Virus record (IMG/VR): IMGVR_UViG_3300025840_004398
Reading direction: 5' to 3' (one strand)
DNA from: a virus
Taxonomy: Duplodnaviria > Caudoviricetes
DNA length: 64,000 nucleotides
Both the position numbers and the translations under genes were made by a program. Each line of letters opens with the position of its first letter. Position 1 is the stretch's first letter. The notes below the pieces were generated by a model that saw nothing but the letters and a program-made list of their open reading frames with translations, had not been told where the DNA came from and did no database searches. Shown piece by piece: positions 122 to 36,315 of this stretch.

Positions 122-140
122 TATCAAGTAAAAAGTAACC

Positions 141-10816: not shown

Positions 10817-10819
10817 GAA

Positions 10820-14023: not shown

Positions 14024-14039
14024 AATTTATAATAATATA

Positions 14040-14047
14040 TATTTATA
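14040..14047 (+). promoter_or_regulatory. TATTTATA putative late-promoter motif (head of tailoring cluster)
   Basis: Exact motif 14 nt before ATG 14062. Confidence 0.55.
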
Positions 14048-14061
14048 TAAAAGGTTGTGTA

Positions 14062-15111
14062 ATGGGAAAAGTAATACTAGTAACAACAGGATGTGGTAAT
14101 ACTGTTGTAGGTGGGGCAGATATATGGGTTAATAATTTTTTAAAAGAAGTGTGGACTAAACTTGATAATAAAAAAAATTATAAACTCCTTATAGATTCGA
14201 AAAGACCGAATTCTTTCGAAGAAAAAAGTTTACCAAAAGGAATTGACTTTAATTTTCATCATGAAAATCCTGAAAAAACGGATGAGTGGTGTAAGTCTGC
14301 TTCTTGGATTCACTTCCTACATCCACATTATCATCCACGACCTCACTTACTAAAGTATGAAGATAAATTTGGAATATGCTTTGTTCATGCATATCCAAGA
14401 GATATGAAATCCATTATAAACAATCTACCTGAAATAAGTAAATTACAACTATCTACAAGTGTAGATGAAAAATGGTATGATGAATTTCTTTTAACTTGCA
14501 AGAGAAGAATATGGATTGGGTTGAATTCCAAAACCACATTATTTAAAAATTTTCCAAATTATACATATCTTTTACCTAACTACTATGAGTTTAGAGGACC
14601 TGCATCTCTGACAACAAATGTTTCTAATGGTGCGGTTGGATATGCCGCTAGAATAGAAACAAGAAAGTGTTTTCATTGGATGCATGGAATAAATGAAGGA
14701 TTTGCCTTGACTAGCTCAAGGGATGTTGAAAATTTAAAATCAGTCACTAGATTTACATTTAAAACAACCGATGTTTATGAGTGGAATCCAAATATACACA
14801 AAGCTTTCATGACTAAAAATTGGGGAATTTTTCATGGAGCATATTTTAGAGAACCATTTGGTTATTCTATTTTTGAAGCAGTAGATTATGGAAAAATACC
14901 AATAATAAACACAGATTGGGCACCAGAAGTTGATTACAAATATCGAGCATCAACGAAAAACGAATTTGATAATTCTATTAAACAAATTTTAAAAGATTCT
15001 CAGCAAACTCGTGTAGAAGAAAGAAATAAGTTGATTCAATTTATGAAAAAATTCGATAACAAAAAAGAATGGGTTGACCAAATTCGTTCACAACTTTTAT
15101 CTTTTTATTAA
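14062..15111 (+). CDS. GT-B fold (GT4-like) glycosyltransferase
   Basis: N-terminal GGADIWV loop and C-terminal EPFGYSIFEAVDYGKIPII (ExFG...EA motif). Confidence 0.65.
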   Translation: MGKVILVTTGCGNTVVGGADIWVNNFLKEVWTKLDNKKNYKLLIDSKRPNSFEEKSLPKGIDFNFHHENPEKTDEWCKSASWIHFLHPHYHPRPHLLKYEDKFGICFVHAYPRDMKSIINNLPEISKLQLSTSVDEKWYDEFLLTCKRRIWIGLNSKTTLFKNFPNYTYLLPNYYEFRGPASLTTNVSNGAVGYAARIETRKCFHWMHGINEGFALTSSRDVENLKSVTRFTFKTTDVYEWNPNIHKAFMTKNWGIFHGAYFREPFGYSIFEAVDYGKIPIINTDWAPEVDYKYRASTKNEFDNSIKQILKDSQQTRVEERNKLIQFMKKFDNKKEWVDQIRSQLLSFY

Positions 15112-15139
15112 ATTTATTTACGTTTCATATATTTTTATA

Positions 15140-15147
15140 TATTTATA
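15140..15147 (+). promoter_or_regulatory. TATTTATA putative late-promoter motif
   Basis: Exact motif in the 15112-15191 intergenic region, upstream of a translationally coupled run of genes. Confidence 0.5.
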
Positions 15148-15191
15148 TACAAGGGGGTAGGGGGGTTAGTTATAAGCACTAAAAACAAAAA

Positions 15192-15971
15192 ATGAGTATT
15201 CTTAATAAAGATTTTATAAAAGACTTTATAACCCATAACTTAAGCACTAAGGTTGATTCGAATGGAAAGGAATATACCGAACACACTCCAATCAAGTATA
15301 GATGGACTCATGGTGCAACTGAATATAGTTTGGGTGATGGATTATTAGTTTATTCTGTAATCCACTATCTTCGTGCCAAAGTTTGTGTATGTCTTGGAAG
15401 TGGTGGGGGATTCATTCCAAGAATAATGACTCAATCGAGGTTTGACCTTTTTGATGCAAAAATATTTGAAGGGAACAATGATATAAATTGGGGAGATATA
15501 GGTTCAACTTATTTGGTAGATGCTGATAATGGTGTTGGTGGTTTTACTGATTGGACTGATGAAAATTCTTATTATAGAAAACACTTTGACCCAAGATTAC
15601 TTCTAACAACTACCGAAGAAGCATATTACAACTTTTTCGTAAAAGAAGATATTAAAATTGATTACCTTCACATAGATGCTGGACATACATACGAGGATGT
15701 AAAAAATGATTTTGAATTATATTCTCAATTACTTCAACCACATGGTATAATTTCAATTCACGATACTGATTCATCATTTGAAAAAGAACATATAGTAACC
15801 GCGGATATTAGAGATGGATATCACCAAGAATATGCCGAAGGACCTTCTAAACTAATTAAAGAATTAAAAGAAAATAAAGATTGGGAAGTATTTAACTTTT
15901 TCAATAATGGTATATTTAAAAGTAAACCAGCATCAACAGGTCTAACATTCGTTCAAAGATGCAAAATATAA
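15192..15971 (+). CDS. Class I SAM-dependent methyltransferase (Methyltransf_24-like)
   Basis: Motif I LGSGGG; IDYLHIDAGHTYEDVKNDF...GIISIHD. Confidence 0.8.
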   Translation: MSILNKDFIKDFITHNLSTKVDSNGKEYTEHTPIKYRWTHGATEYSLGDGLLVYSVIHYLRAKVCVCLGSGGGFIPRIMTQSRFDLFDAKIFEGNNDINWGDIGSTYLVDADNGVGGFTDWTDENSYYRKHFDPRLLLTTTEEAYYNFFVKEDIKIDYLHIDAGHTYEDVKNDFELYSQLLQPHGIISIHDTDSSFEKEHIVTADIRDGYHQEYAEGPSKLIKELKENKDWEVFNFFNNGIFKSKPASTGLTFVQRCKI

Positions 15972-16801
15972 ATTTGGTTACAGTTGTAGGACACAATACT
16001 ACACTTCTTCCCCATATGTTAAATCATTATAAAGATATCGTTGATGATATCTATGTTGTTGTTTACAGACAACACGAACTAGATGGTATTTTAGAAGATG
16101 TAATCAATCTTGGTATTGAACCTTACAAAGTAGTTACAGAACCAAAGTTTAATTGGGAACGAGTAACCGAATTATATAACGAAGTTAAACAAACCAAGCC
16201 CGATGAATGGTGGGTGGTTTCGGATGACGATGAGTTCCACATTTACCCCAAACCAATCAGAGAAATGATTAATGAGTGTGAGGAAAATGGTTGGGAGTTT
16301 ATTACAGGTGGATTCCTCGATAGGATAGGAGAGGGGGGAGAGTTTCCTTTAGTAGAAAAGGATACTAATATTTGGGAAAAGTTCCCACTTGCAGGATTTT
16401 TTAGATTTCCTATGAGTGGGGCAATGCCTAACAAATGTTGTATAATGAAAGGTTCAGTTGATGTAACACCAGGTCAACACTTTGCTGTGATTGGTGATAC
16501 CGATACTTGGAGAGAACGAGGATGGAATCATCCTAAAAGATATCCTATTGAAAACGGATTTGTTCAAGTTCACCACTTCAAGTGGGACTCAACTGTTTTA
16601 AAGAGGCTTAAAGAAGTTTCGGAAACAAAAGAAGATTATACATATTGGAAAGAATATCGTAAAATGTATAGAGGGATACAACTAAACGATTGGAAAATTG
16701 ATGTTGATAATCCTGAATTTAGGTTACAAAAAATGATTCGTAAGAATTATAGTGAGTATGGTGAATGGCAAGAACTCACTAATGTTATAATCAATATATG
16801 A
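15959..16801 (+). CDS. GT-A fold (GT2-like) glycosyltransferase
   Basis: WWVVSDDDEF DxD-type motif, GFLDR, NKCCI and late HHFKW, as in Glyco_tranf_2_4-like proteins. Confidence 0.6.
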   Translation: MQNINLVTVVGHNTTLLPHMLNHYKDIVDDIYVVVYRQHELDGILEDVINLGIEPYKVVTEPKFNWERVTELYNEVKQTKPDEWWVVSDDDEFHIYPKPIREMINECEENGWEFITGGFLDRIGEGGEFPLVEKDTNIWEKFPLAGFFRFPMSGAMPNKCCIMKGSVDVTPGQHFAVIGDTDTWRERGWNHPKRYPIENGFVQVHHFKWDSTVLKRLKEVSETKEDYTYWKEYRKMYRGIQLNDWKIDVDNPEFRLQKMIRKNYSEYGEWQELTNVIINI

Positions 16802-18267
16802 AAGATAAATTAGCAATCATACTTCCATTTAGAGATAGACAAGACCACTTGGATGTCTTTGTACCACATATGCACGAGTTCCTCAAAGATAAAGGAATAG
16901 ACTATACTATTTTTATTGCCGAACAAACCGATGATAGACCTTTCAATTATGGTAAACTATGTAATGTAGTTACCAAAGAAATTGGTGAGGAATATACTTA
17001 CTTTGCTTTTCATGATATTGATATGTTACCTATTTCAGATGATTGTGATTATTCGTATCCAGACGAACCAACTCATTTATCAACTAATGTAGAATCACAC
17101 GAGAATAAATTACCTTACCCACAATATTTCGGTGGTGTTGTTTTAATTAATCGAGAAGATTTTGAAAACGCAAATGGGTATTCAAATGAATATTGGGGTT
17201 ATGGTTTTGAAGATTTAGATTTATTGAGAAGATTAGAAAAAAGTGGTGCTTATCTCGAAAAATTTTATGATTCAAATCAAACATATAACGAATATGATGA
17301 GAATGATATTTTACCATATCGTATAGAAAATGTAAAAATTATAAATAAGAAAATAACAAATAAATTACACACAATACAGTTAAATAAAAATGATAGAATT
17401 TATTCGGTTCAAAATAAAAAAATGAAATCATTGACGTCTGGTAGTTTTACTATAACTTTATGGTTTAATGATATAGACAGTGAGCTTAGAGATAAAAATA
17501 TATTTTCATTTGAAGGATGTGATATGGGTGTGTTTTTATCTAATGGGAAGTATATTATATCACAGATTTGGGATAATAAAGAAAATAATTACGAAACATC
17601 TTTACCATATTACAAAGATAAATGGAATTTTATTATATTGTCATATGATAACAAAACAAAAAATCTTACATTATCGTTAAATAACAAATACATTAATACA
17701 TTGGATTTACCATCTAAATTTGAAATATTTGACTACTCCGATAAAAAAATTAAAATATCAGATTTAGAAACTGAAATTCAAATAGCGAATGTCATAATAT
17801 TTGACCAACTATTAGACGATACCATAAAAACTGAATTATACTATAATGGGGTTGAATCTCTATCTAATATAATTGATATTAAAAAAATAGAACCAACAAA
17901 CATAATATTATTTAAATCCACTTATGGTAAAAATTTTTTTATAGATAATGGTAAATATGGAAACCATTTACAGTTTTTTGGAAACCCATCATCCGATACT
18001 TATAGTATTTCACTAACAGATGAATTGTATTTGCCTTTTAGAATTGAAGGTAAATATAAATCACTTTCACACGACAATGACGATAACATTATAGATAGAT
18101 ACTATGAATATAATCCTGATGTTGAAGAAAATGCAGATATTTTCTTTCATGAAGTTTTAACTAATGAGTTGGATTATAAATCAATAGGATTGAATTCATT
18201 AAAATATGAATCAGTAAAAGAAAAAAACGAAGAATTAAATTATATTTCATTTAAAATTGTTACATAA
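16798..18267 (+). CDS. GT7 (beta-1,4-galactosyltransferase-like) glycosyltransferase with LamG/ConA-like insert
   Basis: AIILPFRDR, PFNYGKL, FHDIDMLP, YFGGV, SNEYWGYGFEDLDL; then an insert of about 250 aa; then GKYKSLSH...IGLNSLKY. Confidence 0.8.
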   Translation: MKDKLAIILPFRDRQDHLDVFVPHMHEFLKDKGIDYTIFIAEQTDDRPFNYGKLCNVVTKEIGEEYTYFAFHDIDMLPISDDCDYSYPDEPTHLSTNVESHENKLPYPQYFGGVVLINREDFENANGYSNEYWGYGFEDLDLLRRLEKSGAYLEKFYDSNQTYNEYDENDILPYRIENVKIINKKITNKLHTIQLNKNDRIYSVQNKKMKSLTSGSFTITLWFNDIDSELRDKNIFSFEGCDMGVFLSNGKYIISQIWDNKENNYETSLPYYKDKWNFIILSYDNKTKNLTLSLNNKYINTLDLPSKFEIFDYSDKKIKISDLETEIQIANVIIFDQLLDDTIKTELYYNGVESLSNIIDIKKIEPTNIILFKSTYGKNFFIDNGKYGNHLQFFGNPSSDTYSISLTDELYLPFRIEGKYKSLSHDNDDNIIDRYYEYNPDVEENADIFFHEVLTNELDYKSIGLNSLKYESVKEKNEELNYISFKIVT

Positions 18268-18268
18268 G

Positions 18269-18502
18269 ATGACAGAAGAACAATTCAAACAATTGATGGA
18301 GGTTCTAAACGATATACTCGAATCAACTCAGAATATTGAAGATGCAATCTACGATGCAAACTTCAAAGAACACAATGAGAAAGTAGAGTGGAATCTATGG
18401 GAAATCCATAACTTAGCAAAAATTAAATTTAAAGGTTCAGAAAATAGACCATCACGAGATGCAGAGAGAACGCAGGAATCGGAGGAAAGTTCAGAATCAT
18501 AA
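18269..18502 (+). CDS. Hypothetical acidic protein
   Basis: ORF-track frame 18257..18502; ATG 18269 directly follows the upstream stop. No recognisable motif. Confidence 0.45.
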   Translation: MTEEQFKQLMEVLNDILESTQNIEDAIYDANFKEHNEKVEWNLWEIHNLAKIKFKGSENRPSRDAERTQESEESSES

Positions 18503-19898
18503 ATTAGGTATTATAGTTCCATACAGAGATAGACCTCAACAACTAAAGAGGTTCGTCAAACATATGGGAGAATATCTAACTGATTTGGACTATCAAATAT
18601 TCATCATCGAACAATCAGATGGTAAGCCATTTAATCGTGGTAAACTTCTGAATATTGGATACAAATTCGCATGCGATAATGGATGTGATTATTTTGTATT
18701 TCATGATGTTGATATGTTACCTGAGGATGTAGATTATTCTTATTCAGATAAACCTTTACATTTAGCAACTCACTTACAAGAACACGATTACGAAACCACA
18801 TTCTTTGATTACTTTGGTGGAGTAACTATGTTCAACAAAGAAGATTTCGAATTGATAAACGGATTCTCCAACGAATATTGGGGTTGGGGATTCGAAGATG
18901 ATGACCTACTGATTAGATGTATTGAATCTGATTTAGAAATAGATAAAGAGTGTATTCAAAAAGAATATGATATTACTGAATATGAGTCTTTTAAATTCAA
19001 TGGTACAAGTTCATTTATAAAAATTAAATCGGATGATAGTAAATTATTAGAAGATAGTTTTACCTTATCTGTTCTCGTAAAACCAGAAAATATTTTACTC
19101 AATGAAAACAAAGAATATGATGAGTTTCCAATATTAGTAATACCTGGATATGACATTGGGTTCTTTTACGATTCATTTAGAAGATTTAGATGCCAGATTT
19201 ATGATAAAAATAAAAAACCATATTCTATAACATCAGATATTATAGGAGAATCTTGGTTACATTTAACGATGACGTATGAAGATAGAAAACTATCATTGTA
19301 TATTGACGGTAAACTATATAACACAATTATAACCGATGATGATTTAATAGAAATATCAAGTGATATTATTTTTGTAGGTACATCGAGTGATGTGAAAACA
19401 AATAATAATTTCTTTTATGGATTAATATCAAATGTTGAGGCTTACGAAATATCACTTGTAAAAGATGAGGTTTATGAAATATATAAAAATTCAAAATATC
19501 CTAAGATTAGAAATTTTGGAAAATTTTATGCATCTGAATACTTGGTAAATCATATTTTACCTGAAAATTCTAATGAAGAATATTGTATAGATTTATCTGG
19601 TAATGGTAAAGTAGAATTAAATGATGTTGGTATAATAAAATTAAAGAATAATCAAAAAACTTTTTTACCAAAGCCGTATCGTAGAAACTCAAGATTTAAA
19701 TCATTAGTTCATAAATCAAATTCTTCTGTTGGAAATAAATGGATTCATGGTGAAACACGAAAAAATCAATTAAAATATTACAACAAAATAAGACAACATG
19801 AAGTAGATTTTAGAATAGATGGACTGAATACATTGCGATATAAATTGGTAAAGGAAAAAGAAAATAAAAAAGTAAAACAAATATCAGTAGAGTTATGA
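18459..19898 (+). CDS. GT7 glycosyltransferase with LamG/ConA-like insert
   Basis: LGIIVPYRDR, PFNRGKLLN, FHDVDMLP, YFGGV, SNEYWGWGFEDDDL; LamG-like FTLSVLVKP...WLHLTMTY...LYIDG; then RFKSLVH...DGLNTLRY. Confidence 0.85.
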   Translation: MQRERRNRRKVQNHKLGIIVPYRDRPQQLKRFVKHMGEYLTDLDYQIFIIEQSDGKPFNRGKLLNIGYKFACDNGCDYFVFHDVDMLPEDVDYSYSDKPLHLATHLQEHDYETTFFDYFGGVTMFNKEDFELINGFSNEYWGWGFEDDDLLIRCIESDLEIDKECIQKEYDITEYESFKFNGTSSFIKIKSDDSKLLEDSFTLSVLVKPENILLNENKEYDEFPILVIPGYDIGFFYDSFRRFRCQIYDKNKKPYSITSDIIGESWLHLTMTYEDRKLSLYIDGKLYNTIITDDDLIEISSDIIFVGTSSDVKTNNNFFYGLISNVEAYEISLVKDEVYEIYKNSKYPKIRNFGKFYASEYLVNHILPENSNEEYCIDLSGNGKVELNDVGIIKLKNNQKTFLPKPYRRNSRFKSLVHKSNSSVGNKWIHGETRKNQLKYYNKIRQHEVDFRIDGLNTLRYKLVKEKENKKVKQISVEL

Positions 19899-20305
19899 GT
19901 GAAACACCAGAAATAGGAATAATTGCAGGTAACTTTGATGTTCTACATCCTGGTTATCTAAAGATGTTTCAAGAAATTGAAAATCATTGTGAAAAACTAT
20001 TTATATTATTACACGATGACCCAACCATTGAAAGACCACATAAGAAAAAACCAATTCTTTCGGTAAACGAAAGAAGAGAGATGTTAAAACAGTTTACATG
20101 GCACCACACTATACTTACTTATAATACAGAAGAAGAACTTCTGTTCTTAATTAAAAGTATAGACCCTGATATAAGATTCTTAGGAGATGATTATGTAGAT
20201 AAATCTTATACAGGTGATAATTTAGGAATACAAGTTCATTGGATAAATCGTTCACATGGTTGGAGTACCACAAAATTTAAACAAGCAATTGCAGATTCAA
20301 TATGA
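19895..20305 (+). CDS. Cytidylyltransferase (TagD/HldE-C-like HIGH family)
   Basis: GNFDVLHPGY, ERREML, GDDY, RSHGWSTTK. Confidence 0.8.
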   Translation: MSETPEIGIIAGNFDVLHPGYLKMFQEIENHCEKLFILLHDDPTIERPHKKKPILSVNERREMLKQFTWHHTILTYNTEEELLFLIKSIDPDIRFLGDDYVDKSYTGDNLGIQVHWINRSHGWSTTKFKQAIADSI

Positions 20306-23129: not shown

Positions 23130-23809
23130 TTATAGAAAAAGAAAAACCATGGTTATTGTGGCCAAGTAAATCTTCTCATGGGATATCAAAAGGAGACATA
23201 CAAAATGTTTTAGAAGGTCATGATGACTTTACTTTTAGTATGAGAATAAAAGTATTATCTAAAGAACCAAATAAAAGAACGATATTTTCAAAGTTACCTA
23301 ATTATATGGGTATAGATGTTGAAAACGAAAATAATAATATTTTATTTATTTGTACAATAAGAAAAGGTGATGTAGTTGAACCAAAGTATATTTTTTTAAA
23401 TGACACCCTTGGTTGGGATTGGAATTTTATTTCTATAAAATATTCAAAAAAATATAATCTAATAGTTTTAGATGTAAATGGTTCTATTTTACATGAACTT
23501 CAATTAAAAGAAGATGAATCAATAGAATCTTTTGATGATTCTCATTTTATATTTGGAGCTGGTAATTTTCCTCACAATGGATTTAATTTAAATTATTCTG
23601 AGTTTGATGTTGATTTTTTATGTATATCAAAAGAATATTTAGAACAAGACGATATCGAAACATTATATAAGAGTGAATCAACAGATAATAAAAATGTAAT
23701 TGGTTTGTATAATTTTAGTAAAAAAACCGATTATCAAATTTTTGATTTAACAAACAATTATAATCTAATACACAGAATGTTAGATTCAACTTCATATTTA
23801 AAAGAATGA
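23126..23809 (+). CDS. Stand-alone LamG/ConA-like domain protein
   Basis: FTFSMRIK...WNFISIKY...LDVNG...FIFGAG pattern resembles the GT7 inserts; ATGA-coupled on both sides. Confidence 0.45.
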   Translation: MIIEKEKPWLLWPSKSSHGISKGDIQNVLEGHDDFTFSMRIKVLSKEPNKRTIFSKLPNYMGIDVENENNNILFICTIRKGDVVEPKYIFLNDTLGWDWNFISIKYSKKYNLIVLDVNGSILHELQLKEDESIESFDDSHFIFGAGNFPHNGFNLNYSEFDVDFLCISKEYLEQDDIETLYKSESTDNKNVIGLYNFSKKTDYQIFDLTNNYNLIHRMLDSTSYLKE

Positions 23810-26507: not shown

Positions 26508-26509
26508 CT

Positions 26510-30294: not shown

Positions 30295-31520
30295 AACCAA
30301 CTAAAAGCGTAAGTTGTGTCCATGCTAAAAATGGATTAAGAGTTACAAACGATGGTTTTGTAATGCCTTGTTGTTATTATGACTATAAACATAGATTTAA
30401 AGACCGAAACGGAGACTACATAAAAACCGATGTTCATAGTATTAAAGATATGATGGAATCTCCTGACAGAAGGGACTTAATTAATTCTTTAGAAAATGGA
30501 ATAAAACATGAAGGTTGTAAAAGATGTTGGGTTGATGAAGATGTAAAGGGAGATAGTAAAAGATTAAGAGACTTAGAAACATTGGGTATGTTTTCTAAAG
30601 ATAACAATCAAGCTAAGTTCATAGAATTAAATCTTGGTATTACTTGTAATTTGGCTTGTAGAATGTGTAATGTTGGTGCATCAATTAAATGGATGAATGA
30701 GCATAGATTAGTATATGACACACCTGACCACTGGAAAGATGATGATAATTATAAAAAAGAAGTAAAGACTTTTTATAAAAGTTATGAGTACGATTCTATT
30801 TTTTGGGAAGAACTGCCAAAAATATTACCAGATGTAAAAACAATAGATATGTATGGTGGAGAACCAATGTTAATGAAAAAACAATGGGAGGTTTTACAGA
30901 TAGCGGTTGAAAAAGGATATTCAGAAAACATATCATTGCATTTCAATACAAATGGAACCATATATAATGATGCATATGTTGAAATACTAAAGAATTTTGG
31001 CCATGTTACATTTAGTTTTAGTATAGATGGTATTGGTAAAAGATTTGAATATATTAGACATCACGGTTCATGGGATGATGTAGATACTAAAGTTAGAAAA
31101 TGGATATCTCTTACAAAAGAAAATAAAAATTTTGAAATAGATTTGGCATATACCGTAACTAATTTAAATATTGGATTTATAGATGAAGTTGCAACATGGT
31201 GTTTTGCTAATAATGTAAGAATGTATTTAATAAACGTATCTGAACCAGAGTATTATTCTCCATACAATTTGCCAGTTGGTGCAAAAAATATGATTACTGA
31301 AAAAATGAATAAGTTTATTTCAAACAATAGATTTTTATCAAAAGAATTAATAAATGACATAAACGGCTCGGTAAATTTAATGAATTCTCAAAACTATAAT
31401 TTAGAAGAGTGGAGTAAATTTATAAAAGCAACTCAAATATTAGACAAATCTAGAAATCAAGATTTTATGAAAGCTTTCCCTGAGTTGGGGAAATATATAA
31501 ACACAAATTTATTTTTATGA
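30291..31520 (+). CDS. Radical SAM enzyme with N-terminal twitch-like domain (subfamily B)
   Basis: SCVHA...PCC...GCKRCW; ITCNLACRMC; YGGEP; FNTNG; FPEL. Confidence 0.9.
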   Translation: MKPTKSVSCVHAKNGLRVTNDGFVMPCCYYDYKHRFKDRNGDYIKTDVHSIKDMMESPDRRDLINSLENGIKHEGCKRCWVDEDVKGDSKRLRDLETLGMFSKDNNQAKFIELNLGITCNLACRMCNVGASIKWMNEHRLVYDTPDHWKDDDNYKKEVKTFYKSYEYDSIFWEELPKILPDVKTIDMYGGEPMLMKKQWEVLQIAVEKGYSENISLHFNTNGTIYNDAYVEILKNFGHVTFSFSIDGIGKRFEYIRHHGSWDDVDTKVRKWISLTKENKNFEIDLAYTVTNLNIGFIDEVATWCFANNVRMYLINVSEPEYYSPYNLPVGAKNMITEKMNKFISNNRFLSKELINDINGSVNLMNSQNYNLEEWSKFIKATQILDKSRNQDFMKAFPELGKYINTNLFL

Positions 31521-32497
31521 ACAAAATACTCATTACAGGAGGAGCAGGTTACTTAGGTTCAATAATTACAGAAACACTTTTAGAAGGATGGAGAGAAGTT
31601 ACTGTATTAGATAACTTGATGCACAACCAAACATCAGTATCTATCTTTTCACATCAAAAAAACTTTAAGTTTGTTTATGGTGATGTAAGAGATAAAGAAT
31701 TACTAAAAGAATTAGTATTAGAACATGATGTGATTATTCCACTTGCAGCAATCGTTGGATTTCCTGCTTGTGAAAGAGATAAAGAATTAGCAACTCAGAT
31801 AAATTATGAGCACGTCAAGTTTGTATGTGAGTTAGCAAAAGAACATAATAAAAAGGTGGTTTATCCGAACACTAATAGTGGATACGGGATAGGAGAGAGT
31901 GGTGTTTGTACGGAGGAAAGTCCGCTAAACCCCATTTCCCATTATGGGAAAACCAAGGTAGAGGCAGAAAAAGAGGTACTTGGGATAGGAGGTATCTCTT
32001 TACGCCTTGCTACTGTGTTTGGAACATCACCAAGAATGAGAATGGACTTGTTAGTAAACGAATTTGTTTACAAAGCACTAACTGATAAGTACATTACACT
32101 TTTTGAGAGAAAGTTTGTACGAAACTTCATTCATATCAGAGATGTTGCATTGGTATTTAGAAAAATGATAAACCAATATGACCAATGGACTAATAATGGT
32201 AAATTTGGTAGAGTATTTAATGTAGGTTTATCTTCAGCAAATCTAACCAAACAAGAATTATGTGAAGCAATCAAAGAACAGATACCTTCATTTGAGATTT
32301 TCCACAATGATAATTACGAGGACCCTGATAAACGAGATTATGTAGTATCAAATGAGTTACTTGAAAGTTGTGGGTGGAAACCAAGATACACTTTAGAAGA
32401 AGGTATTGAAGAATTGATTAAATGTTACACAATTCTAATTAAAGATTTAAGTTCAAAGTATAGAAATGATTTTCCATTAGGTTATGGCATTAAATAG
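31517..32497 (+). CDS. NAD-dependent epimerase/dehydratase (extended SDR)
   Basis: ILITGGAGYLG, LAAIVG, intact catalytic YGKTK, LRLATVFG, DKRDY. Confidence 0.9.
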   Translation: MNKILITGGAGYLGSIITETLLEGWREVTVLDNLMHNQTSVSIFSHQKNFKFVYGDVRDKELLKELVLEHDVIIPLAAIVGFPACERDKELATQINYEHVKFVCELAKEHNKKVVYPNTNSGYGIGESGVCTEESPLNPISHYGKTKVEAEKEVLGIGGISLRLATVFGTSPRMRMDLLVNEFVYKALTDKYITLFERKFVRNFIHIRDVALVFRKMINQYDQWTNNGKFGRVFNVGLSSANLTKQELCEAIKEQIPSFEIFHNDNYEDPDKRDYVVSNELLESCGWKPRYTLEEGIEELIKCYTILIKDLSSKYRNDFPLGYGIK

Positions 32498-33068
32498 AAG
32501 TATATTTTACAAAGAACGAGATTGGAACGATTTCCATTATTACAATGGTTCGGTACTCAACGAGGTAAAGGTTGTACAACCATCTACTTACTATGAGTTC
32601 AGAGGTTCTATATCTACCACTTACCATTCAGATTACTACGATAGGTTACTACCTGCGAACGAACGTAACGAAGGTTTACAATTCAAACATGATAGGTACT
32701 CAAAATCAAAATATGGAGTTCTTAGAGGATTACATTATGATGAAAAAACTTGGAAGTTGGTAAGTTGTATTCATGGTAAAATTTATTTAGTAGTATTAGA
32801 TGTAAGACCTTACTCAACCACTTATGGTAAATGGGAATCTTTTATTCTTTCACCTGAAACAGGAACACAAGTTCTTATTCCACCAAACTTTGCAAATGGA
32901 CACTTTGTAATGGAAGATGATTCAATCTTCTTTTATAAGATGGCATATCAAGGTGAGTATAATGATGAGAACAAGCAAAAAACGATTGTATTTAACAATC
33001 CTAAGTTTAATATAGATTGGCCAGTACAATCACCAATCTTATCAAAACGAGATAGATATGAACATTAA
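32484..33068 (+). CDS. rmlC: dTDP-4-dehydrorhamnose 3,5-epimerase-like cupin
   Basis: EFRG, GVLRGLHY, KLVSCIHG, LDVR, IPPNFANGH, C-terminal IDWP...ILSKRD. Confidence 0.85.
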   Translation: MALNRSIFYKERDWNDFHYYNGSVLNEVKVVQPSTYYEFRGSISTTYHSDYYDRLLPANERNEGLQFKHDRYSKSKYGVLRGLHYDEKTWKLVSCIHGKIYLVVLDVRPYSTTYGKWESFILSPETGTQVLIPPNFANGHFVMEDDSIFFYKMAYQGEYNDENKQKTIVFNNPKFNIDWPVQSPILSKRDRYEH

Positions 33069-33696
33069 AAATTTAGATTACCACGAAGATAGATGGACTG
33101 AAGGTAATTGGTCTGTACAAGATTTAATAGATTTTGAAGATGATATCATAAAACATTGGGAAGGTGGAGAAATCACAGGACCAATTCACCTATCAAATGG
33201 TAACGAAAAAGAACTAATTAGAATATTCAATAAAATTGGTATTGACGATTGGGTATTCTCAACTTGGAGGTCTCATTATCACGCACTTTTACATGGTATG
33301 GAACCTTCGGTATTAAAACAAAAAATTTTAGATGGTAAATCCATAACAATTGTAGATAAAGATTCTAAGTTTTATGCTTCTGCAATCGTAACTGGTACTT
33401 TACCAATTGCATTAGGAGTTGCAAAAGCAATCAAACTCCAAAAATCAGATAATAAAGTTTGGGTATTCTTAGGAGATATGGCATTTGAAAGTGGAATCTT
33501 TTATGAAGTTCACAAATATGCAAGAAACTATGATTTACCTTTGTATTTCGTGGTAGAAGATAATGGTGTAAGTACAAATACACCTACATTAGATACATGG
33601 AATGGTATTCAAAGAGAAATACCAGAAGATGTGATATATTATAAGTATGAATCAAAATATCCCCACTATGGGACAGGAAAATGGGTAGTATTTTAG
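33058..33696 (+). CDS. ThDP-dependent enzyme, E1-alpha-like (diphosphate-binding) subunit
   Basis: GPIHLSNGNE, STWRSH, GDMAFESG...EDN ThDP motif; about 210 aa, shorter than a PDH E1 alpha. Confidence 0.8.
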   Translation: MNIKNLDYHEDRWTEGNWSVQDLIDFEDDIIKHWEGGEITGPIHLSNGNEKELIRIFNKIGIDDWVFSTWRSHYHALLHGMEPSVLKQKILDGKSITIVDKDSKFYASAIVTGTLPIALGVAKAIKLQKSDNKVWVFLGDMAFESGIFYEVHKYARNYDLPLYFVVEDNGVSTNTPTLDTWNGIQREIPEDVIYYKYESKYPHYGTGKWVVF

Positions 33697-34613
33697 TAAC
33701 AGGTTGTAGTGGTTTAGTAGGAACTCATTTAGTTCACAAATTATTAGAAAAAGATTATTATGTTGTGGGTGTAGATTTGTATAAATCAGACAATTTACCA
33801 ACACATGATAAGTTTACTTTTCATAATATTGATTTAAGAGACCCATACGATGTAAATGTATTATTTAGTCAACATCAATTTGGTGGTGTGGTAAATGCAT
33901 TTGGAATTAAAGGTTCGCCAATTAAAGCAAAGGAAAATCCTGTTGATTTTTTAGAACCATCAATTAAAGTAAATACAAATATTATAGATAATTGTGTAAA
34001 AAGAAAAATTTGGCTGGTTTTTATGAGTTCGGTAGGAGTTTATGAACCAGCAGAAGAATTTGTAGAAGATACAGTATGGAAAACACTTCCATCACCAAAC
34101 GATTGGTTTCCATCTTGGTCAAAAAGAATACCAGAGTTGTATTTAGAAGCTCACAAAGTTCAACATGGATACGATAAATGGACAATTGTAAGACCAGCAA
34201 ACATTTTTGGTGAATATGATAATTTCGGAGATGGTGCAACTGTAATCGGAGCAACTTGTAGAAAAGTTTACGAATCGGATGGTGAGATTGAAGCATGGGG
34301 AGATGGAACACCAACTCGTGATTTTATTTATGCAGGAGATGTTGCTGATGGTTGTATCAAATGTTTAGAAGATAAACTGCATATAACAACTAACTTAGGA
34401 AGTGGTGAAGAAATATCAATCAAACGAATGATTGAAACTGTTGCCAAAGTTAGTGGTAAAGAAATAAAAATTAATTGGGATACATCCAAACCCAATGGTG
34501 ATATGAGAAGAAGAATGAGTACTAAGATACAAGAACAATTCGGTCTATTACCAAAACTTGGATTTGAACAAGGAATAAAACGAACATACGAACATTATGA
34601 AAAAAACAGATAA
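33681..34613 (+). CDS. Extended SDR, GDP-L-fucose-synthase-like
   Basis: LVTGCSGLVG, RPANIFG, WGDGTPTRDF, PNGDMRR. The YxxxK position reads PSWSK. Confidence 0.75.
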   Translation: MGSILVTGCSGLVGTHLVHKLLEKDYYVVGVDLYKSDNLPTHDKFTFHNIDLRDPYDVNVLFSQHQFGGVVNAFGIKGSPIKAKENPVDFLEPSIKVNTNIIDNCVKRKIWLVFMSSVGVYEPAEEFVEDTVWKTLPSPNDWFPSWSKRIPELYLEAHKVQHGYDKWTIVRPANIFGEYDNFGDGATVIGATCRKVYESDGEIEAWGDGTPTRDFIYAGDVADGCIKCLEDKLHITTNLGSGEEISIKRMIETVAKVSGKEIKINWDTSKPNGDMRRRMSTKIQEQFGLLPKLGFEQGIKRTYEHYEKNR

Positions 34614-35589
34614 AATATTAGTTACAGGAGCAAGTGGATTTATAGGTTCACGATTAATCAAAATGTTATGGGAAAATGGTTATACCAATTTACGTTCCAC
34701 ATCGTGGAGTAGAGGTTTGCGAGAAGATTTCGAAGGGTGGTCAGAAGTAGAACATCTAAATGGAGATTTGAGAGATGCGGATTTCTGTCAAAGAGTTTCG
34801 GAGGGAGTTGATGTTGTATTCCACGCAGCAGCAAACACTTCGAATGCATTAGACACTAAAGTAAATCCACTACTCCATGTAACACCTAACGTAGAAATGA
34901 ATACAAACCTTATGGAACAAAGTTGGAGAAACAAAGTTCGTAAGTTTATGTTTATTTCTTCTAACACAACTTACCCTGATGTGGGTGATGAGTATTGTAC
35001 AGAAGAAATGGAAGTACAAACTCCAAATATTTATCCTGTCTACAAGGCAGTTGGTTGGATGAAGAGATATGGAGAAACTCTTTGTGAGTTTTTCTCTAAC
35101 CAAATCCATGACCCAATGCAATGTGTAATCATCAGACCTTCAAATGCATTTGGACCAAATGATAAATTCGATTATGAGAAGTGTCATGTAACACCCGCAA
35201 ACATTCGTAAGGTTGCAGACGGATTAAATCCAATTCCACTATGGGGAGATGGTACAGAAGTAAGAGATATTATCCATGTTGATGATATGGTAAGTGGATT
35301 TATCACAGTTGCAGAAAATGTGGATACCTATGATATCTATAACGTATGTTATGGTAAAGGACATACTGTAATGGAGGTATTAGAGTTGTTAAAAGAAATC
35401 GAAGGTAACGATAATCCTATCGAGTTTGTAAATAACAAAGCACCGATGATACCAAAGAGATTATTATCAAGTAAAAAATTAGAAAAACTTGGTTGGAAAC
35501 CAAAATACGATTTAAGAAGTGGATTAGAAGATGCACTTCGTTGGTATAAAGAAAACAAAGACCAGTTTGACCCAAATTCAAAACCATAA
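34597..35589 (+). CDS. Extended SDR, GDP-L-fucose-synthase-like
   Basis: ILVTGASGFIG, FHAAA, RPSNAFGP, HVTPA, WGDGTEVRD. The YxxxK position reads VGWMK. Confidence 0.8.
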   Translation: MKKTDKILVTGASGFIGSRLIKMLWENGYTNLRSTSWSRGLREDFEGWSEVEHLNGDLRDADFCQRVSEGVDVVFHAAANTSNALDTKVNPLLHVTPNVEMNTNLMEQSWRNKVRKFMFISSNTTYPDVGDEYCTEEMEVQTPNIYPVYKAVGWMKRYGETLCEFFSNQIHDPMQCVIIRPSNAFGPNDKFDYEKCHVTPANIRKVADGLNPIPLWGDGTEVRDIIHVDDMVSGFITVAENVDTYDIYNVCYGKGHTVMEVLELLKEIEGNDNPIEFVNNKAPMIPKRLLSSKKLEKLGWKPKYDLRSGLEDALRWYKENKDQFDPNSKP

Positions 35590-36137
35590 TGAGTAAACCA
35601 GAATTCACACCTTATGTAGATGCACTAACAGAGGCAATGAAATTGTGTATGGATGAACCATCTACAATTTTTATAGGACAACAAATTGTTTATTATGGAA
35701 ATCCAATGTCAAAGACAATTGAAGGTTTACCAAAGGAACGAATGATTGAAACTCCAGTCATGGAAGAAACTCAAATGGGAATGACTATGGGTCTTGCAAT
35801 GGCAGAACATCAAGTTGTTACTTTTTATCCTCGTTGGGATTTTCTAATTCTCGCGTGTAATCAGTTGGTAAATCACTTGGATAAGTTAGAAGCGATGTCT
35901 GATGGTGAGTGGAAACCAAACGTAATTGTAAGAGTTGGTAAAGGAAGTGATAAACCACTTGACCCAGGTCATCAACACAAAGCAGATTATACAGAACCAT
36001 TCAAACAAATTTTAACTAATGCAACTATACAAGAATTAAAGAAAGCTGAACAAATTTTACCCGCTTATCAGAGAGCTTTAGATATGGGAGGAATACATAT
36101 ACTTGTAGAATACCCAGAATTATATTATAACAATTAA
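35589..36137 (+). CDS. ThDP-dependent enzyme, E1-beta/transketolase pyrimidine-binding subunit (no C-terminal domain)
   Basis: FIGQ, ETPVMEETQMGMTMGLA, NQLVNH, GHQH; 182 aa. Confidence 0.8.
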   Translation: MSKPEFTPYVDALTEAMKLCMDEPSTIFIGQQIVYYGNPMSKTIEGLPKERMIETPVMEETQMGMTMGLAMAEHQVVTFYPRWDFLILACNQLVNHLDKLEAMSDGEWKPNVIVRVGKGSDKPLDPGHQHKADYTEPFKQILTNATIQELKKAEQILPAYQRALDMGGIHILVEYPELYYNN

Positions 36138-36139
36138 CT

Positions 36140-36271
36140 ATGAAAAAAATTTATAACTTTTTATTTGGAAGAATCACCCGTTGGAAAGAAAAAAAGAAAA
36201 TGGAAAAGATTTATAAAAAAAGATTAGAGGAATTGCGTAAAAGAGACCCCTTCATTTACAAAAATCACTAA
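36140..36271 (+). CDS. Small basic hypothetical protein, 43 aa
   Basis: Hand-translated: MKKIYNFLFGRITRWKEKKKMEKIYKKRLEELRKRDPFIYKNH. Starts 2 nt after the upstream stop; not in the ORF track. Confidence 0.6.
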   Translation: MKKIYNFLFGRITRWKEKKKMEKIYKKRLEELRKRDPFIYKNH

Positions 36272-36294: not shown

Positions 36295-36315
36295 TACTGA
36301 TAAGGTATATTGAAT

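What the first reader, a model, noticed from the sequence alone, without database searches (positions are those of the whole stretch)
14040..36271. 22-kb late-type biosynthetic cluster embedded between fibre and head genes: candidate virion glyco-tailoring system
Seen: 23 same-strand ORFs, mostly coupled by overlapping or abutting stop/start codons: five glycosyltransferases, a methyltransferase, a cytidylyltransferase, seven radical SAM enzymes, three SDRs, RmlC, a split ThDP enzyme and a lectin-like protein. The cluster is headed by the same TATTTATA motif as structural genes and follows extremely Ser/Thr-rich fibre proteins. Established: these families build and decorate NDP-sugars and glycans, whereas phage DNA hypermodification usually involves hydroxymethylases, nucleotide kinases or 2OG-Fe dioxygenases, none of which is seen here. 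Inference: a self-contained pathway making an unusual, heavily tailored glycan for capsid or fibres (antidefence or adsorption camouflage) or for the host surface (superinfection exclusion). This is the strongest candidate for an undescribed system in the window.
Basis: partly seen in the sequence, partly recalled or inferred. Interest (0 to 1): 0.88.

Follow-up and report, generated by a model that had tools for sequence, protein, structure and literature searches.

The report
Phage glycan-building and radical-tailoring gene cassette
A large uncultured aquatic phage carries, right behind its long tail-fibre genes, a conserved 22-kb block of soluble enzymes that most likely builds an unusual branched, methylated sugar coat and edits it with seven radical enzymes of a family nobody has characterised; what the coat is attached to is still unproven.

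Summary
Window 14062-36137 carries 21 large same-strand ORFs plus one conserved 77-aa ORF, not 23. Eighteen of 20 junctions overlap or abut.

Confirmed gene content:
- five glycosyltransferases: one GT-B, one GT2-like, and three animal-type GT7 enzymes with a LamG domain inserted in the catalytic fold;
- an O-methyltransferase and a nucleotidyltransferase;
- seven radical SAM enzymes, all NF033640 (N-terminal twitch);
- a free LamG protein, three SDRs and RmlC;
- a miniaturised split E1-like ThDP enzyme.

The block is not a chimera. The core MT-GT2-GT7-GT7-rSAM(-LamG) recurs in 35 independent contigs, usually just behind a long-fibre gene. It is absent from all 50,697 GenBank phages.

All proteins are soluble. 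Related phage records show no lipid-carrier initiating transferase, no flippase, and no hydroxymethyl-pyrimidine or TET pathway.

Best reading (about 0.4): a cytoplasmic pathway makes a two-carbon-branched deoxysugar glycan and tailors it on virion proteins, probably the adjacent fibres. Host-surface, DNA and small-molecule targets remain open.

Glycosyltransferase and radical-SAM cassettes beside fibres were noted in pelagimyophages in 2020, so this is a new variant of a known kind. First readers of this scan also noted GT7-LamG trios in several other genomes.

The parts
14039..14049 (+). promoter-like motif ATATTTATATA heading the cluster; a second copy lies at 15139-15149
   Evidence: There are 6 exact copies in the window. 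All are on the + strand, in intergenic DNA, before gene starts including the fibre gene and head-region genes.
14062..15111 (+). GT-B (GT4-like) glycosyltransferase, first gene of the cassette
   Evidence: It has no Pfam hit. The AF2 model has pLDDT 89.4. Foldseek matches GlgM, PimA, MshA, BshA, WaaG and T4 AGT/BGT at 10-13% identity. It carries an EPFGY..F.A..GK.PI motif, invariant in 14 homologues.
15192..15971 (+). SAM-dependent methyltransferase (Methyltransf_24)
   Evidence: Pfam E 1.6e-11, 45 bits against a cut-off of 26. It is a core cassette gene in most of the 35 cassette contigs; the exceptions are loci cut short upstream.
15959..16801 (+). GT-A / GT2-like glycosyltransferase (weak call)
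   Evidence: Glyco_tranf_2_4 E 1.4e-5, just under the cut-off. Atlas neighbours are GT2 and GT92 clusters. It has a DDD at residue 89. It is a core cassette gene.
16798..18267 (+). GT7 (beta4GalT-like) glycosyltransferase with inserted LamG, copy a
   Evidence: GT7N, GT7C and Laminin_G_3 hits. This is the accessory third copy, present in a subset of contigs.
18269..18502 (+). conserved 77-aa acidic ORF between GT7 copies
   Evidence: tblastn finds it in L001, L002, L021, L022 and L029, which all carry three GT7 copies.
18459..19898 (+). GT7 glycosyltransferase with inserted LamG, copy b (core)
   Evidence: PDB beta4GalT1/7 at E 1e-31. AF2 pLDDT 91.9. VIA-align gives Z 27.7 with 219 of 272 residues aligned; model 6..479 matches bovine beta4GalT1 131..398. 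Residues 174-399 match LamG/pentraxin at Z 18-23. HDxD, WGxEDD and H418 are invariant in 61 homologues.
19895..20305 (+). small cytidylyl/adenylyl-transferase-like protein (RfaE domain II / TagD-like)
   Evidence: CTP_transf_like at 46 bits. RfaE dom II and TagD models match below their cut-offs. The signature reads HPGY instead of HxGH. It is accessory, present in 4 of the 82 viral loci.
20302..21750 (+). GT7 glycosyltransferase with inserted LamG, copy c (core)
   Evidence: It lies directly upstream of, and overlaps by 4 nt, the core radical SAM gene. This order is conserved across the cassette contigs.
21747..23129 (+). radical SAM 1, N-terminal twitch family (core orthologue)
   Evidence: NF033640 at 345 bits. 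Its clade has 34 members, all from cassette-bearing viruses, with SH-like support 97.
23126..23809 (+). stand-alone LamG/ConA-like protein paired with radical SAM 1
   Evidence: Atlas feature and structure matches to Laminin_G_3 and to GT7-LamG proteins, TM 0.83. A LamG gene directly follows the rSAM1-type gene in at least 24 contigs, and the pair is duplicated in L016, L021 and L022.
23806..31520 (+). radical SAM 2-7 (23806-25182, 25167-26507, 26510-27805, 27787-29028, 29029-30294, 30291-31520), accessory paralogues
   Evidence: All are NF033640 at 275-405 bits and keep the conserved Cys motifs. Each falls in a different clade, with orthologues in other viruses and in Bdellovibrionota MAGs. 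Copy number varies from 1 to 7 among relatives.
31517..32497 (+). extended SDR 1 (canonical YGKTK)
   Evidence: Epimerase family E 2e-30. YxxxK at residue 143. No TDE dehydratase motif, by my reading of the alignment.
32484..33068 (+). RmlC-type NDP-4-keto-6-deoxyhexose 3,5-epimerase
   Evidence: dTDP_sugar_isom at 135 bits. TIGR01221 at 119 bits, below its equivalog cut-off of 156.
33058..33696 (+). ThDP enzyme, PP-domain subunit (E1-alpha-like, truncated to 212 aa)
   Evidence: E1_dh at 53 bits. The GD-x27-DN cofactor motif is present. In 301 Bacteroidota genomes the best matches are full-length E1-alpha at only 28-36% identity.
33681..35589 (+). extended SDR 2 (33681-34613, no canonical YxxxK) and SDR 3 (34597-35589, YPVYK), GDP-fucose-synthase-like
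35589..36137 (+). ThDP enzyme, Pyr-domain subunit (E1-beta-like, 182 aa)
   Evidence: Transket_pyr at 22 bits, below cut-off. E1-beta NCBIfam E 2e-11. phrog_34187 E 1e-24. The TPVME motif keeps the cofactor-activating Glu.
5252..10816 (+). long tail fibre (1854 aa) with C-terminal S74 chaperone domain; candidate acceptor
   Evidence: Peptidase_S74 E 2e-14. Homologues lie just upstream of the cassette in 12 contigs. The same promoter-like motif precedes it.
10820..14023 (+). second fibre-like protein (1067 aa, 27% Ser+Thr) ending in a Hint domain; candidate acceptor
   Evidence: Hint-terminated proteins lie beside or inside the cassette in L006, L008 (two) and L030, and in none of about 125 non-cassette loci.

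Best explanation
The block is a phage-encoded, wholly cytoplasmic glycan factory with three modules.

(1) Sugar module (31517-36137). RmlC epimerises a host-supplied NDP-4-keto-6-deoxyhexose. The two-piece E1-like ThDP enzyme adds a pyruvate-derived two-carbon branch. The SDRs reduce the keto groups. The product is an NDP-activated branched 6-deoxy-L-hexose.

(2) Assembly module (14062-21750). A GT-B enzyme, a GT2-like enzyme and two or three GT7 enzymes build an oligosaccharide on an acceptor, and a methyltransferase O-methylates it. The LamG domain is inserted in each GT7 near the acceptor loop. It acts as a built-in acceptor-recognition module.

(3) Tailoring module (21747-31520). Seven N-terminal-twitch radical SAM enzymes each perform a different radical edit on the sugars, such as oxidation, dehydration, epimerisation or C-C/C-H chemistry. 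The core enzyme works with its own free LamG partner.

I commit to virion proteins as the acceptor, most probably the two fibre proteins encoded just upstream. The product would be a variable glycan coat on the fibres.

Shown: the gene content, folds, catalytic motifs, conservation and linkage. Inferred: the substrate order, the sugar identity, the radical chemistry and the acceptor.
For: - Enzyme families and intact catalytic motifs.
- The GT7 fold is complete with an inserted LamG, and the first gene has a GT-B fold.
- Split E1 alpha/beta pairs next to a 3,5-epimerase and reductases are the documented route to two-carbon-branched deoxysugars (Plm8/Plm9, AviB1/B2; PMC4802897).
- Relatives' cassettes add classic sugar-tailoring genes: DegT, carbamoyltransferase, a sugar dehydrogenase and TylF.
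- The core order is conserved in 35 independent contigs. It directly follows fibre genes in most contigs that reach far enough upstream.
- Hint-ended fibre-like proteins sit beside or inside the cassette only in cassette contigs.
- The same promoter-like motif stands before fibre and head-region genes.
- None of the 21 proteins has a membrane segment.
- Related phage records have no initiating phosphoglycosyl transferase and no Wzx.
- The nearest cultured phage shares the primase...TerL backbone but has neither these fibres nor the cassette in the 45 kb compared.
- The rSAM-LamG pair behaves as a unit.
- The seven rSAMs are seven old, distinct lineages.
- Contigs from RNA libraries of four runs, each from a different study, cover the fibres and the cluster.
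Against: - No glycan, glycoprotein or enzyme activity has been observed.
- No cultured phage carries the cassette, so there is no proteomic precedent.
- The N-twitch radical SAM family has no characterised member. Its closest solved structures are only remote: SkfB, CteB, BtrN, viperin and MoaA.
- In Bdellovibrionota the same family forms arrays among housekeeping genes without glycosyltransferases. Its chemistry therefore need not concern glycans.
- The fibres are only moderately Ser/Thr-rich.
- The GT-B fold resembles T4 DNA glucosyltransferases as much as it resembles other GT4 enzymes.
- The pathway lacks an NDP-sugar pyrophosphorylase and an obvious 4,6-dehydratase.
- SDR2 lacks YxxxK, and the nucleotidyltransferase has HPGY in place of HxGH.
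- RNA-library contigs may derive from carried-over DNA.
Confidence: 0.4

Rival explanations
1. Host-surface remodelling. The cassette makes nucleotide sugars and glycans that end up on the host's LPS or capsule during infection. This would block superinfection by competing phages, as assumed for glycosyltransferases in the fibre region of pelagimyophages.
For: This is the published interpretation of analogous cassettes (PMC7029224). RmlC, SDR, DegT and carbamoyltransferase genes are typical of O-antigen loci. The phage-made NDP-sugar could be consumed by host enzymes.
Against: No protein of the cluster has a membrane segment. Three related phage records (55-83% complete) have no Bac_transf, no WecA-type transferase and no Wzx, while the controls gave hits. 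The promoter-like motif is shared with virion genes rather than early genes. LamG-fused soluble GTs and the strict linkage to fibre genes are not needed for this role. A change made late in a lytic cycle gives little exclusion benefit (inference).
Confidence: 0.2
2. DNA hypermodification. The glycosyltransferases build a tailored glycan on a modified base of the phage genome to evade restriction and CRISPR, as in T4 and the recently described phages with glycan-hypermodified cytosines.
For: The first gene is a GT-B enzyme whose structural neighbours include T4 alpha- and beta-glucosyltransferases. They also include 7qsg, 7fg9 and 8x3q, entries that appear as structural matches of glycosyltransferases in a DNA-glycan paper. 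Phage DNA can carry multi-sugar glycans (10.1101/2023.12.21.572611). All enzymes are cytoplasmic. Primase and SbcCD lie just upstream of the fibre genes.
Against: Related records hold one ThyA homologue. It has PPCH and LGLPFN motifs and matches bacterial thymidylate synthases at E 1e-75, so it is not a dCMP hydroxymethylase or hydroxylase. There was no Tet/JBP hit, although that control was silent everywhere. Known DNA-glycan clusters sit beside hydroxymethylase or 5mYOX and DNA-metabolism genes. This cassette sits behind fibres and shares the structural-gene motif. Lectin-like LamG inserts and Hint-ended fibre proteins have no role in DNA modification. The related records are incomplete, so absence is not proven.
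Confidence: 0.12
3. Free small molecule, or a protein modification unrelated to glycans. In one form, the cassette makes a diffusible glycoside, aminoglycoside-like or nucleotide-derived, that manipulates the host or competitors. In the other, the radical SAM array modifies peptide side chains of a phage or host protein independently of the sugar genes.
For: Twitch or SPASM radical SAM enzymes include aminoglycoside enzymes (BtrN) and many peptide maturases. The profile's nearest solved relatives are SkfB and CteB. Arrays of the same family exist without GTs in about 45 viral contigs and in Bdellovibrionota chromosomes.
Against: No precursor-peptide-like gene accompanies the array, and the genes are packed with 4-nt overlaps. 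The core rSAM is always wedged between a GT7 and a LamG gene. rSAM arrays co-occur with the RmlC-ThDP-SDR module even outside the full cassette, in L042, L050, L063 and L117. No transporter or resistance gene is present.
Confidence: 0.1

Closest known systems
Host-recognition cluster of pelagimyophages and cyanomyophages (PMC7029224)
   Same: T4-like aquatic myophages carry a hypervariable region that combines tail-fibre genes with glycosyltransferases, sugar-synthesis genes and variable radical SAM gene cassettes.
   Different: That region is described only at annotation level, is dominated by GT8, and is read as host O-chain modification. No GT7-LamG, N-twitch rSAM/LamG pair or split ThDP module was described. 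This phage is not a pelagimyophage by capsid similarity: its best matches are an uncultured huge phage, Microcystis phage Mel-JY01 and Flavobacterium phage immuto at 52-56%.
Virus-encoded virion glycosylation: chlorovirus PBCV-1 capsid glycans, Mimivirus fibril glycans, mycobacteriophage capsid and tail glycosylation (own knowledge; Freeman et al. 2023 is cited in PMC12801897)
   Same: The virus carries its own soluble glycosyltransferases, methyltransferase and rare-sugar pathways, and decorates structural proteins in the cytoplasm.
   Different: In those systems the glycans were shown chemically, which has not been done here. None includes radical SAM enzymes, GT7-LamG enzymes or a ThDP branching enzyme. 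To my knowledge the mycobacteriophage systems have only one or two glycosyltransferases.
Two-carbon-branched deoxysugar pathways with split pyruvate-dehydrogenase-E1-like enzymes (Plm8/Plm9 of paulomycin, AviB1/AviB2 of avilamycin; PMC4802897)
   Same: An E1-alpha-like and an E1-beta-like gene sit next to a 3,5-epimerase, keto-reductases and an O-methyltransferase. The ThDP-binding motif and the activating Glu are kept.
   Different: The subunits here are cut down to the bare PP (212 aa) and Pyr (182 aa) domains. The context is a phage rather than an actinomycete antibiotic cluster. No 4,6-dehydratase or 2,3-dehydratase is encoded.
Animal beta-1,4-galactosyltransferases (GT7: beta4GalT1, beta4GalT7)
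   Same: Identity is 31-38% (31-34% over the whole-domain VIA alignment). The full catalytic fold is present (Z 27.7), with HDxD metal site, WGxEDD catalytic loop and C-terminal His.
   Different: A LamG domain of about 225 aa is inserted after the catalytic loop. The enzymes are soluble, with no signal anchor. There are 2,879 90%-identity clusters, all metagenomic and unnamed. Donor and acceptor are unknown.
Phage DNA glycan hypermodification clusters (10.1101/2023.12.21.572611; PMC13326640)
   Same: Several phage GT-A and GT-B enzymes plus sugar epimerases act in the cytoplasm. The GT-B structural neighbours overlap with those found here.
   Different: Those clusters are anchored to a hydroxymethylase, hydroxylase or 5mYOX and to DNA-metabolism genes. 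No such gene was found here or in relatives, and this cassette is anchored to fibre genes.

Membership tests
NF033640 twitch domain-containing radical SAM protein (N_Twi_rSAM) | Full-length match above the curated cut-off (170 bits) | tested here: met
   All seven paralogues score 275-405 bits over model positions 1-398.
NF033640 twitch domain-containing radical SAM protein (N_Twi_rSAM) | CxxxCxxC radical SAM cluster motif plus an N-terminal Cys-rich twitch/partial SPASM module | tested here: met
   C19, C38, C80, C83, C134, C138, C141 and GGEP are invariant in all seven. The SPASM Pfam model hits the N-terminus of four of them. BtrN's twitch region aligns to profile positions 15-88. Cluster binding itself cannot be tested here.
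GT7 (beta-1,4-galactosyltransferase family) | GT7N and GT7C domains above Pfam cut-offs and the complete GT-A fold of beta4GalT | tested here: met
   Scores of 60-78 bits against cut-offs of 23-27. Z 27.7, rmsd 2.5 Å, 219 of 272 residues aligned to bovine beta4GalT1 131-398.
GT7 (beta-1,4-galactosyltransferase family) | Metal-binding DxD, catalytic EDD loop and C-terminal metal His | tested here: met
   H82, D83, D85, G144, D147 and H418 are invariant, and W143, E146 and D149 are kept in at least 90%, among 61 homologues. The correspondence to beta4GalT1 residues rests on my knowledge of that enzyme.
GT7 (beta-1,4-galactosyltransferase family) | Transfers Gal/GalNAc from a UDP-sugar in beta-1,4 linkage | not testable with these tools
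   This needs an enzyme assay.
Split E1-like ThDP enzymes that add two-carbon branches to NDP-ketosugars (Plm8/9, AviB1/B2) | An E1-alpha-like PP domain with a ThDP-Mg motif and an E1-beta-like Pyr domain with the activating Glu, encoded as two genes | tested here: met
   E1_dh at 53 bits. GD-x27-DN motif and TPVME Glu. The beta subunit matches only below Pfam and NCBIfam cut-offs.
Split E1-like ThDP enzymes that add two-carbon branches to NDP-ketosugars (Plm8/9, AviB1/B2) | Full-length E1 alpha (about 330 aa) and beta (about 325 aa) subunits | tested here: not met
   The subunits are 212 and 182 aa. Bacteroidota matches are ORFs of mostly 330-440 aa, the size of full-length E1-alpha, at 28-36% identity. 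This is therefore a miniaturised variant, not a plain member.
Split E1-like ThDP enzymes that add two-carbon branches to NDP-ketosugars (Plm8/9, AviB1/B2) | Co-located with a 3,5-epimerase and keto-reductases of a 6-deoxyhexose pathway | tested here: met
   The order SDR-RmlC-ThDPa-SDR-SDR-ThDPb is conserved, sometimes with extra genes interspersed, in the window, L002, L003 and L005. Partial versions occur in about ten further contigs.
Virus-encoded virion glycosylation systems | Glycan chemically attached to virion proteins | not testable with these tools
   No cultured carrier exists. Only linkage to fibre genes and a shared motif are available.
Virus-encoded virion glycosylation systems | Expression together with structural (late) genes | tested here: inconclusive
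   The promoter-like motif is shared with fibre and head-region genes. RNA-library contigs cover the fibres and the cluster, but they give neither timing nor strand, and DNA carry-over is possible.
Phage DNA glycosylation systems | An enzyme that creates the hydroxylated or hydroxymethylated base (ThyA-like hydroxymethylase/hydroxylase or TET/5mYOX) | tested here: not met
   None is in the window. In related records the only ThyA homologue is thymidylate-synthase-like, and there is no Tet_JBP hit (where the control was silent). The records are 55-83% complete, so this is absence of evidence.
Lipid-carrier-based surface polysaccharide pathways (Wzx/Wzy or ABC type) | Initiating phosphoglycosyl transferase, flippase or transporter, i.e. 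membrane proteins | tested here: not met
   There is no hydrophobic segment in any cluster protein. PF02397, PF00953 and PF01943 are absent from three related phage records while the controls gave hits.

The most novel reading that the evidence does not exclude
The N-terminal-twitch radical SAM enzymes would be a new class of glycan-editing radical enzymes. They would work on an already attached sugar coat and be guided by LamG acceptor-recognition modules, fused into the GT7 enzymes and free-standing beside the core rSAM. Their variable copy number would diversify a glycan coat on the phage's long fibres. In the boldest form, the Hint domain at the end of the neighbouring fibre protein transfers the fibre's C-terminus onto a cassette-made glycan or glycoconjugate, in the way Hedgehog's Hint domain attaches cholesterol.
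Probability: 0.2. Interest if true: 0.85.

Novelty: new variant of a known kind. Interest (0 to 1): 0.62.

Why it matters
Glycan coats on virions change adsorption, host range, stability and recognition by defences or grazers. So far they are documented chemically only for giant viruses and a few phages.

This cassette is common in uncultured aquatic phages. I found more than 35 contigs with the core, 2,879 GT7-LamG protein clusters, and more than 6,000 N-twitch radical SAM clusters in metagenomes. It is missing from every cultured phage.

It joins three enzyme types with no characterised representative in this form: an animal-type GT7 with an inserted lectin-like domain, a radical SAM family with a permuted twitch domain, and a minimal split ThDP enzyme. 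Working out one member would assign function to thousands of 'hypothetical' viral genes. It would also test whether the glycosyltransferase islands beside marine phage fibres act on the phage itself rather than on the host, as has been assumed.

Tried and rejected
- Megablast of the 22 kb against GenBank phages gave no match.
- tblastn of GT7-LamG against GenBank phages gave no match. The GT-B gene hit one uncultured phage only. rSAM4 gave only 23-26% hits, to KVP40-like Vibrio phages, Ralstonia phage RsoM2USA and one marine virus contig.
- No whole genome is held for the window.
- The genomic context of cellular rSAM homologues, nearly all Bdellovibrionota MAGs, was uninformative: housekeeping neighbours.
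- A search of 301 Bacteroidota genomes for the mini ThDP subunit found only ordinary full-length E1-alpha.
- Single-sequence PDB searches gave nothing useful for rSAM4, the GT2-like gene, the methyltransferase and the C-terminal GT7 tail.
- BLASTP between the free LamG and the GT7c LamG found no sequence similarity. They share the fold only.
- Literature searches for the NF033640 family name, for 'Glyco_transf_7C' with 'phage', and for radical SAM with SPASM and tail fibre found no functional study.
- I rejected assembly chimerism. The same edges (fibre ... ThDP-beta, then the 1119-aa protein) occur in L005. The rSAM4 protein, with the same flanking rSAM genes, is on 15 contigs, and the five shown come from five different samples.
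- I rejected recent tandem duplication of the rSAMs. They fall in seven separate old clades.

Full report
**What the window is.** The window comes from a large T4-like myophage. Terminase (41048-42640), portal (43102-44832), prohead protease and major capsid protein (53905-55515) are recognisable. The capsid protein is 56% identical to an uncultured 484-kb phage. It is 52-53% identical to Microcystis phage Mel-JY01 and Flavobacterium phage immuto. G+C is about 30% throughout, with no compositional break at the cluster edges. No genome is held for the window. One of its proteins is recorded on contigs up to 200,815 bp and in several aquatic samples.

**Checking the observation.** From 14062 to 36137 every gene is on the + strand.
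- I count 21 ORFs of 136-489 aa plus a 77-aa ORF (18269-18502) that is conserved in five related contigs. That makes 22 genes, not 23.
- Eighteen of 20 junctions overlap or abut.
- Pfam and NCBIfam confirm a Methyltransf_24 methyltransferase, three GT7N+GT7C+Laminin_G_3 proteins, a small cytidylyltransferase-like protein, three extended SDRs, RmlC, an E1-alpha-like ThDP PP domain and an E1-beta-like Pyr domain.
- A GT2-like protein is also found, at 25.9 bits against a cut-off of 27.5. Language-model neighbours support the call.
- All seven radical SAM proteins belong to one NCBIfam family, NF033640 'twitch domain-containing radical SAM protein', at 275-405 bits against a cut-off of 170. They share four N-terminal cysteines, CxxxCxxC and GGEP.
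- Two ORFs had no Pfam hit and were resolved otherwise. The 349-aa first gene folds (pLDDT 89) as a GT-B glycosyltransferase. The 227-aa ORF is a free LamG/ConA-like protein.
- The motif is real. ATATTTATATA occurs exactly six times, always on the + strand and always in the 3.3% of the window that is non-coding. The sites are 12-42 nt before the starts at 5252, 14062, 15192, 36310 and 39724, and just behind the stop at 63846.
- 'Extremely Ser/Thr-rich' is an overstatement. The fibres are 23% and 27% Ser+Thr.

**It is a conserved cassette, not an assembly artefact.** I compared all window proteins with the ORFs of 82 viral contigs that carry a related radical SAM gene, and with 78 prokaryote-genome loci.
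- 35 independent contigs carry GT7 genes. They share the core order methyltransferase - GT2-like - GT7 - GT7 - radical SAM 1, as far as each contig reaches.
- In at least 24 of them a free LamG gene directly follows the rSAM1-type gene. The rSAM-LamG pair is duplicated as a unit in three contigs.
- The GT-B gene heads the cassette in 15 contigs.
- The module SDR-RmlC-ThDPalpha-SDR-SDR-ThDPbeta follows in the window and in L002, L003 and L005, sometimes with extra genes interspersed, and in part in about ten more.
- L005 has the same two edges as the window: the fibre gene upstream and the 1119-aa protein downstream.
- Upstream, a homologue of the long fibre (12 contigs) or another ORF of 750-1170 aa (five more) lies within a few genes of the cassette.
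- The long fibre ends in a Peptidase_S74 chaperone domain, as fibres and spikes typically do.
- The number of GT7 genes (2-3) and radical SAM genes (1-7) varies between relatives.
- Other relatives add DegT aminotransferases, a carbamoyltransferase, a UDP-Glc/GDP-Man dehydrogenase, TylF-type and other methyltransferases, 2OG-Fe oxygenases and a B12-radical SAM. This is the standard toolbox of deoxy- and amino-sugar tailoring.
- The nearest cultured phage, immuto, shares the primase and the terminase-portal-protease-capsid backbone. Within the 45 kb compared it has neither these fibres nor the cassette.
- None of 50,697 GenBank phage records has a GT7-LamG gene.

**The individual enzymes.**
- *GT7-LamG.* The model (pLDDT 91.9) superposes on bovine beta4GalT1 with Z 27.7 and rmsd 2.5 Å, with 219 of 272 residues aligned. 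Model residues 6-479 span chain residues 131-398. Residues 174-399 superpose on LamG and pentraxin domains at Z 18-23.
- The LamG domain is thus inserted into a complete catalytic domain, after the WGxEDD loop. HDxD, the WGxEDD loop and H418 are invariant or nearly so in 61 homologues.
- From my knowledge of beta4GalT1, this insertion point lies next to the mobile loop that forms the acceptor site and where alpha-lactalbumin docks. I therefore read LamG as a built-in acceptor-recognition module. That is an inference.
- The family comprises 2,879 90%-identity clusters, all metagenomic and unnamed.
- *Radical SAM.* No solved structure is close. A profile reaches only SkfB, CteB, BtrN, viperin, BlsE and MoaA, at E 3e-7 or weaker. 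BtrN's twitch segment aligns to the N-terminal Cys module.
- A tree of 235 sequences puts the seven window paralogues in seven separate clades. rSAM1 sits in a clade of 34 sequences that are all from cassette viruses (SH-like 97). The other six mix with other viruses and cellular MAGs. They are therefore old, functionally distinct lineages, not recent duplicates.
- Cellular homologues are overwhelmingly in Bdellovibrionota MAGs, including Mb-size chromosomes. There they form arrays of up to eight genes among housekeeping genes. That context gives no clue to the substrate.
- *ThDP pair.* The 212-aa subunit keeps a GD-x27-DN cofactor motif. The 182-aa subunit keeps the TPVME glutamate. Both are cut down to single domains, and Bacteroidota genomes hold only full-length E1-alpha at 28-36% identity.
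- Split E1-alpha/beta pairs beside a 3,5-epimerase are the documented way to add a pyruvate-derived two-carbon branch at C-4 of NDP-4-keto-6-deoxyhexoses. Examples are paulomycose and eurekanate (PMC4802897).
- None of the three SDRs shows the TDE motif of 4,6-dehydratases, by my reading of the alignment, and SDR2 lacks YxxxK. No hexose-1-phosphate nucleotidyltransferase is present. The pathway therefore probably starts from a host NDP-4-keto-6-deoxyhexose.

**What is the acceptor?** This is the unresolved point.

*Evidence for virion proteins:*
- strict linkage to fibre genes;
- the shared promoter-like motif;
- soluble lectin-fused glycosyltransferases;
- Hint-ended fibre-like proteins beside or inside the cassette, in the window, L006, L008 (two) and L030, and in none of about 125 non-cassette loci.

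*Evidence against a host-surface pathway:*
- no membrane segment in any cluster protein;
- no initiating phosphoglycosyl transferase or Wzx in three related phage records, while the control genomes gave hits.

*Evidence bearing on DNA modification:*
- the only ThyA homologue in related records has PPCH and LGLPFN motifs and matches thymidylate synthases at E 1e-75;
- no Tet/JBP domain was found, but that control was silent and the records are 55-83% complete;
- on the other side, the GT-B enzyme resembles T4 DNA glucosyltransferases as much as other GT4 enzymes, and multi-sugar DNA glycans are now known.

Contigs from RNA libraries of four runs, each from a different study, cover both fibres and cluster at 99% identity or more. 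This is compatible with expression. It gives no timing, and carried-over DNA is not excluded.

**Verdict.**
- The block is a genuine, conserved glycan-building and tailoring cassette. I put my own confidence in that general statement at about 0.85.
- My committed mechanism is a branched deoxysugar glycan built and radical-edited on the phage's own fibres, at about 0.4. The rivals are host-surface remodelling (0.2), DNA glycan hypermodification (0.12), and a small molecule or glycan-independent protein modification (0.1).
- Glycosyltransferase and radical SAM cassettes beside fibres were already noted in pelagimyophages (PMC7029224), and virus-encoded virion glycosylation is known. I therefore class this as a new variant of a known kind. 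Its components are uncharacterised and abundant.
- First readers of this scan noted GT7-LamG trios in several other genomes. Those notes are unchecked and were not counted as evidence.

Noticed in passing
window 10820-14023; L006:3411-4463; L008:1-2976 and 4214-5254; L030:1-681: The second fibre-like protein ends in a Hint (intein/Hedgehog-type) domain followed by only 6 residues (..THN|AKGIEV). Four more Hint-ended proteins, with tails HN|KGSN.., HN|AGKAP and HN|KGTNDAP, lie beside or inside the cassette in three other contigs. None occurs in about 125 non-cassette loci. The +1 residue is not a nucleophile, so splicing is unlikely. Autocleavage, or transfer of the fibre's C-terminus to another nucleophile, is conceivable.
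   Followed up: partly
window 18269-18502: A 77-aa acidic ORF lies between two GT7 genes and overlaps the next gene by 44 nt. It is conserved at 32-64% identity in five contigs, all of which carry three GT7 copies. Its function is unknown.
   Followed up: partly
L089-L165 (genome contigs): Cellular homologues of the N-twitch radical SAM family are concentrated in Bdellovibrionota MAGs (Bdellovibrio, Bacteriovorax, Pseudobdellovibrio and relatives). They include Mb-size chromosomes, with arrays of up to 8 paralogues on both strands among housekeeping genes. Viral and cellular sequences are interleaved in the tree.
   Followed up: partly
L088 (248-kb contig of a Flavobacteriaceae MAG) and L105 (23-kb contig of a Pelagibacterales MAG, 27% G+C): Both carry the phage cassette (L088 also a fibre gene) and are probably phage contigs binned with bacteria. 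They may hint at hosts, but they disagree with each other.
   Followed up: no
window 36310-39669: The 1119-aa protein after the cluster has an N-terminal HxGH-type nucleotidyltransferase domain and a DUF5661 domain. Flavobacterium phage immuto has a 908-aa protein annotated 'NadR' in the same primase-to-terminase region. Only the DUF5661 part matched immuto DNA, and it did so at a different gene.
   Followed up: partly
window 19895-20305: The small cytidylyltransferase-like protein reads HPGY where the family signature is HxGH. It is present in only 4 of the 82 viral loci examined.
   Followed up: no
window 5200-25199: Contigs assembled from four freshwater metatranscriptome libraries, from four studies, match fibres and cluster at 99% identity or more and cover 22-28 of 30 bins. 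The phage is therefore recurrent and probably active in natural freshwater or estuarine samples.
   Followed up: partly
window 1858-5016: The Mre11-like phosphoesterase and the SbcC/Rad50-like ATPase are fused in one 1052-aa ORF directly upstream of the fibre genes.
   Followed up: no
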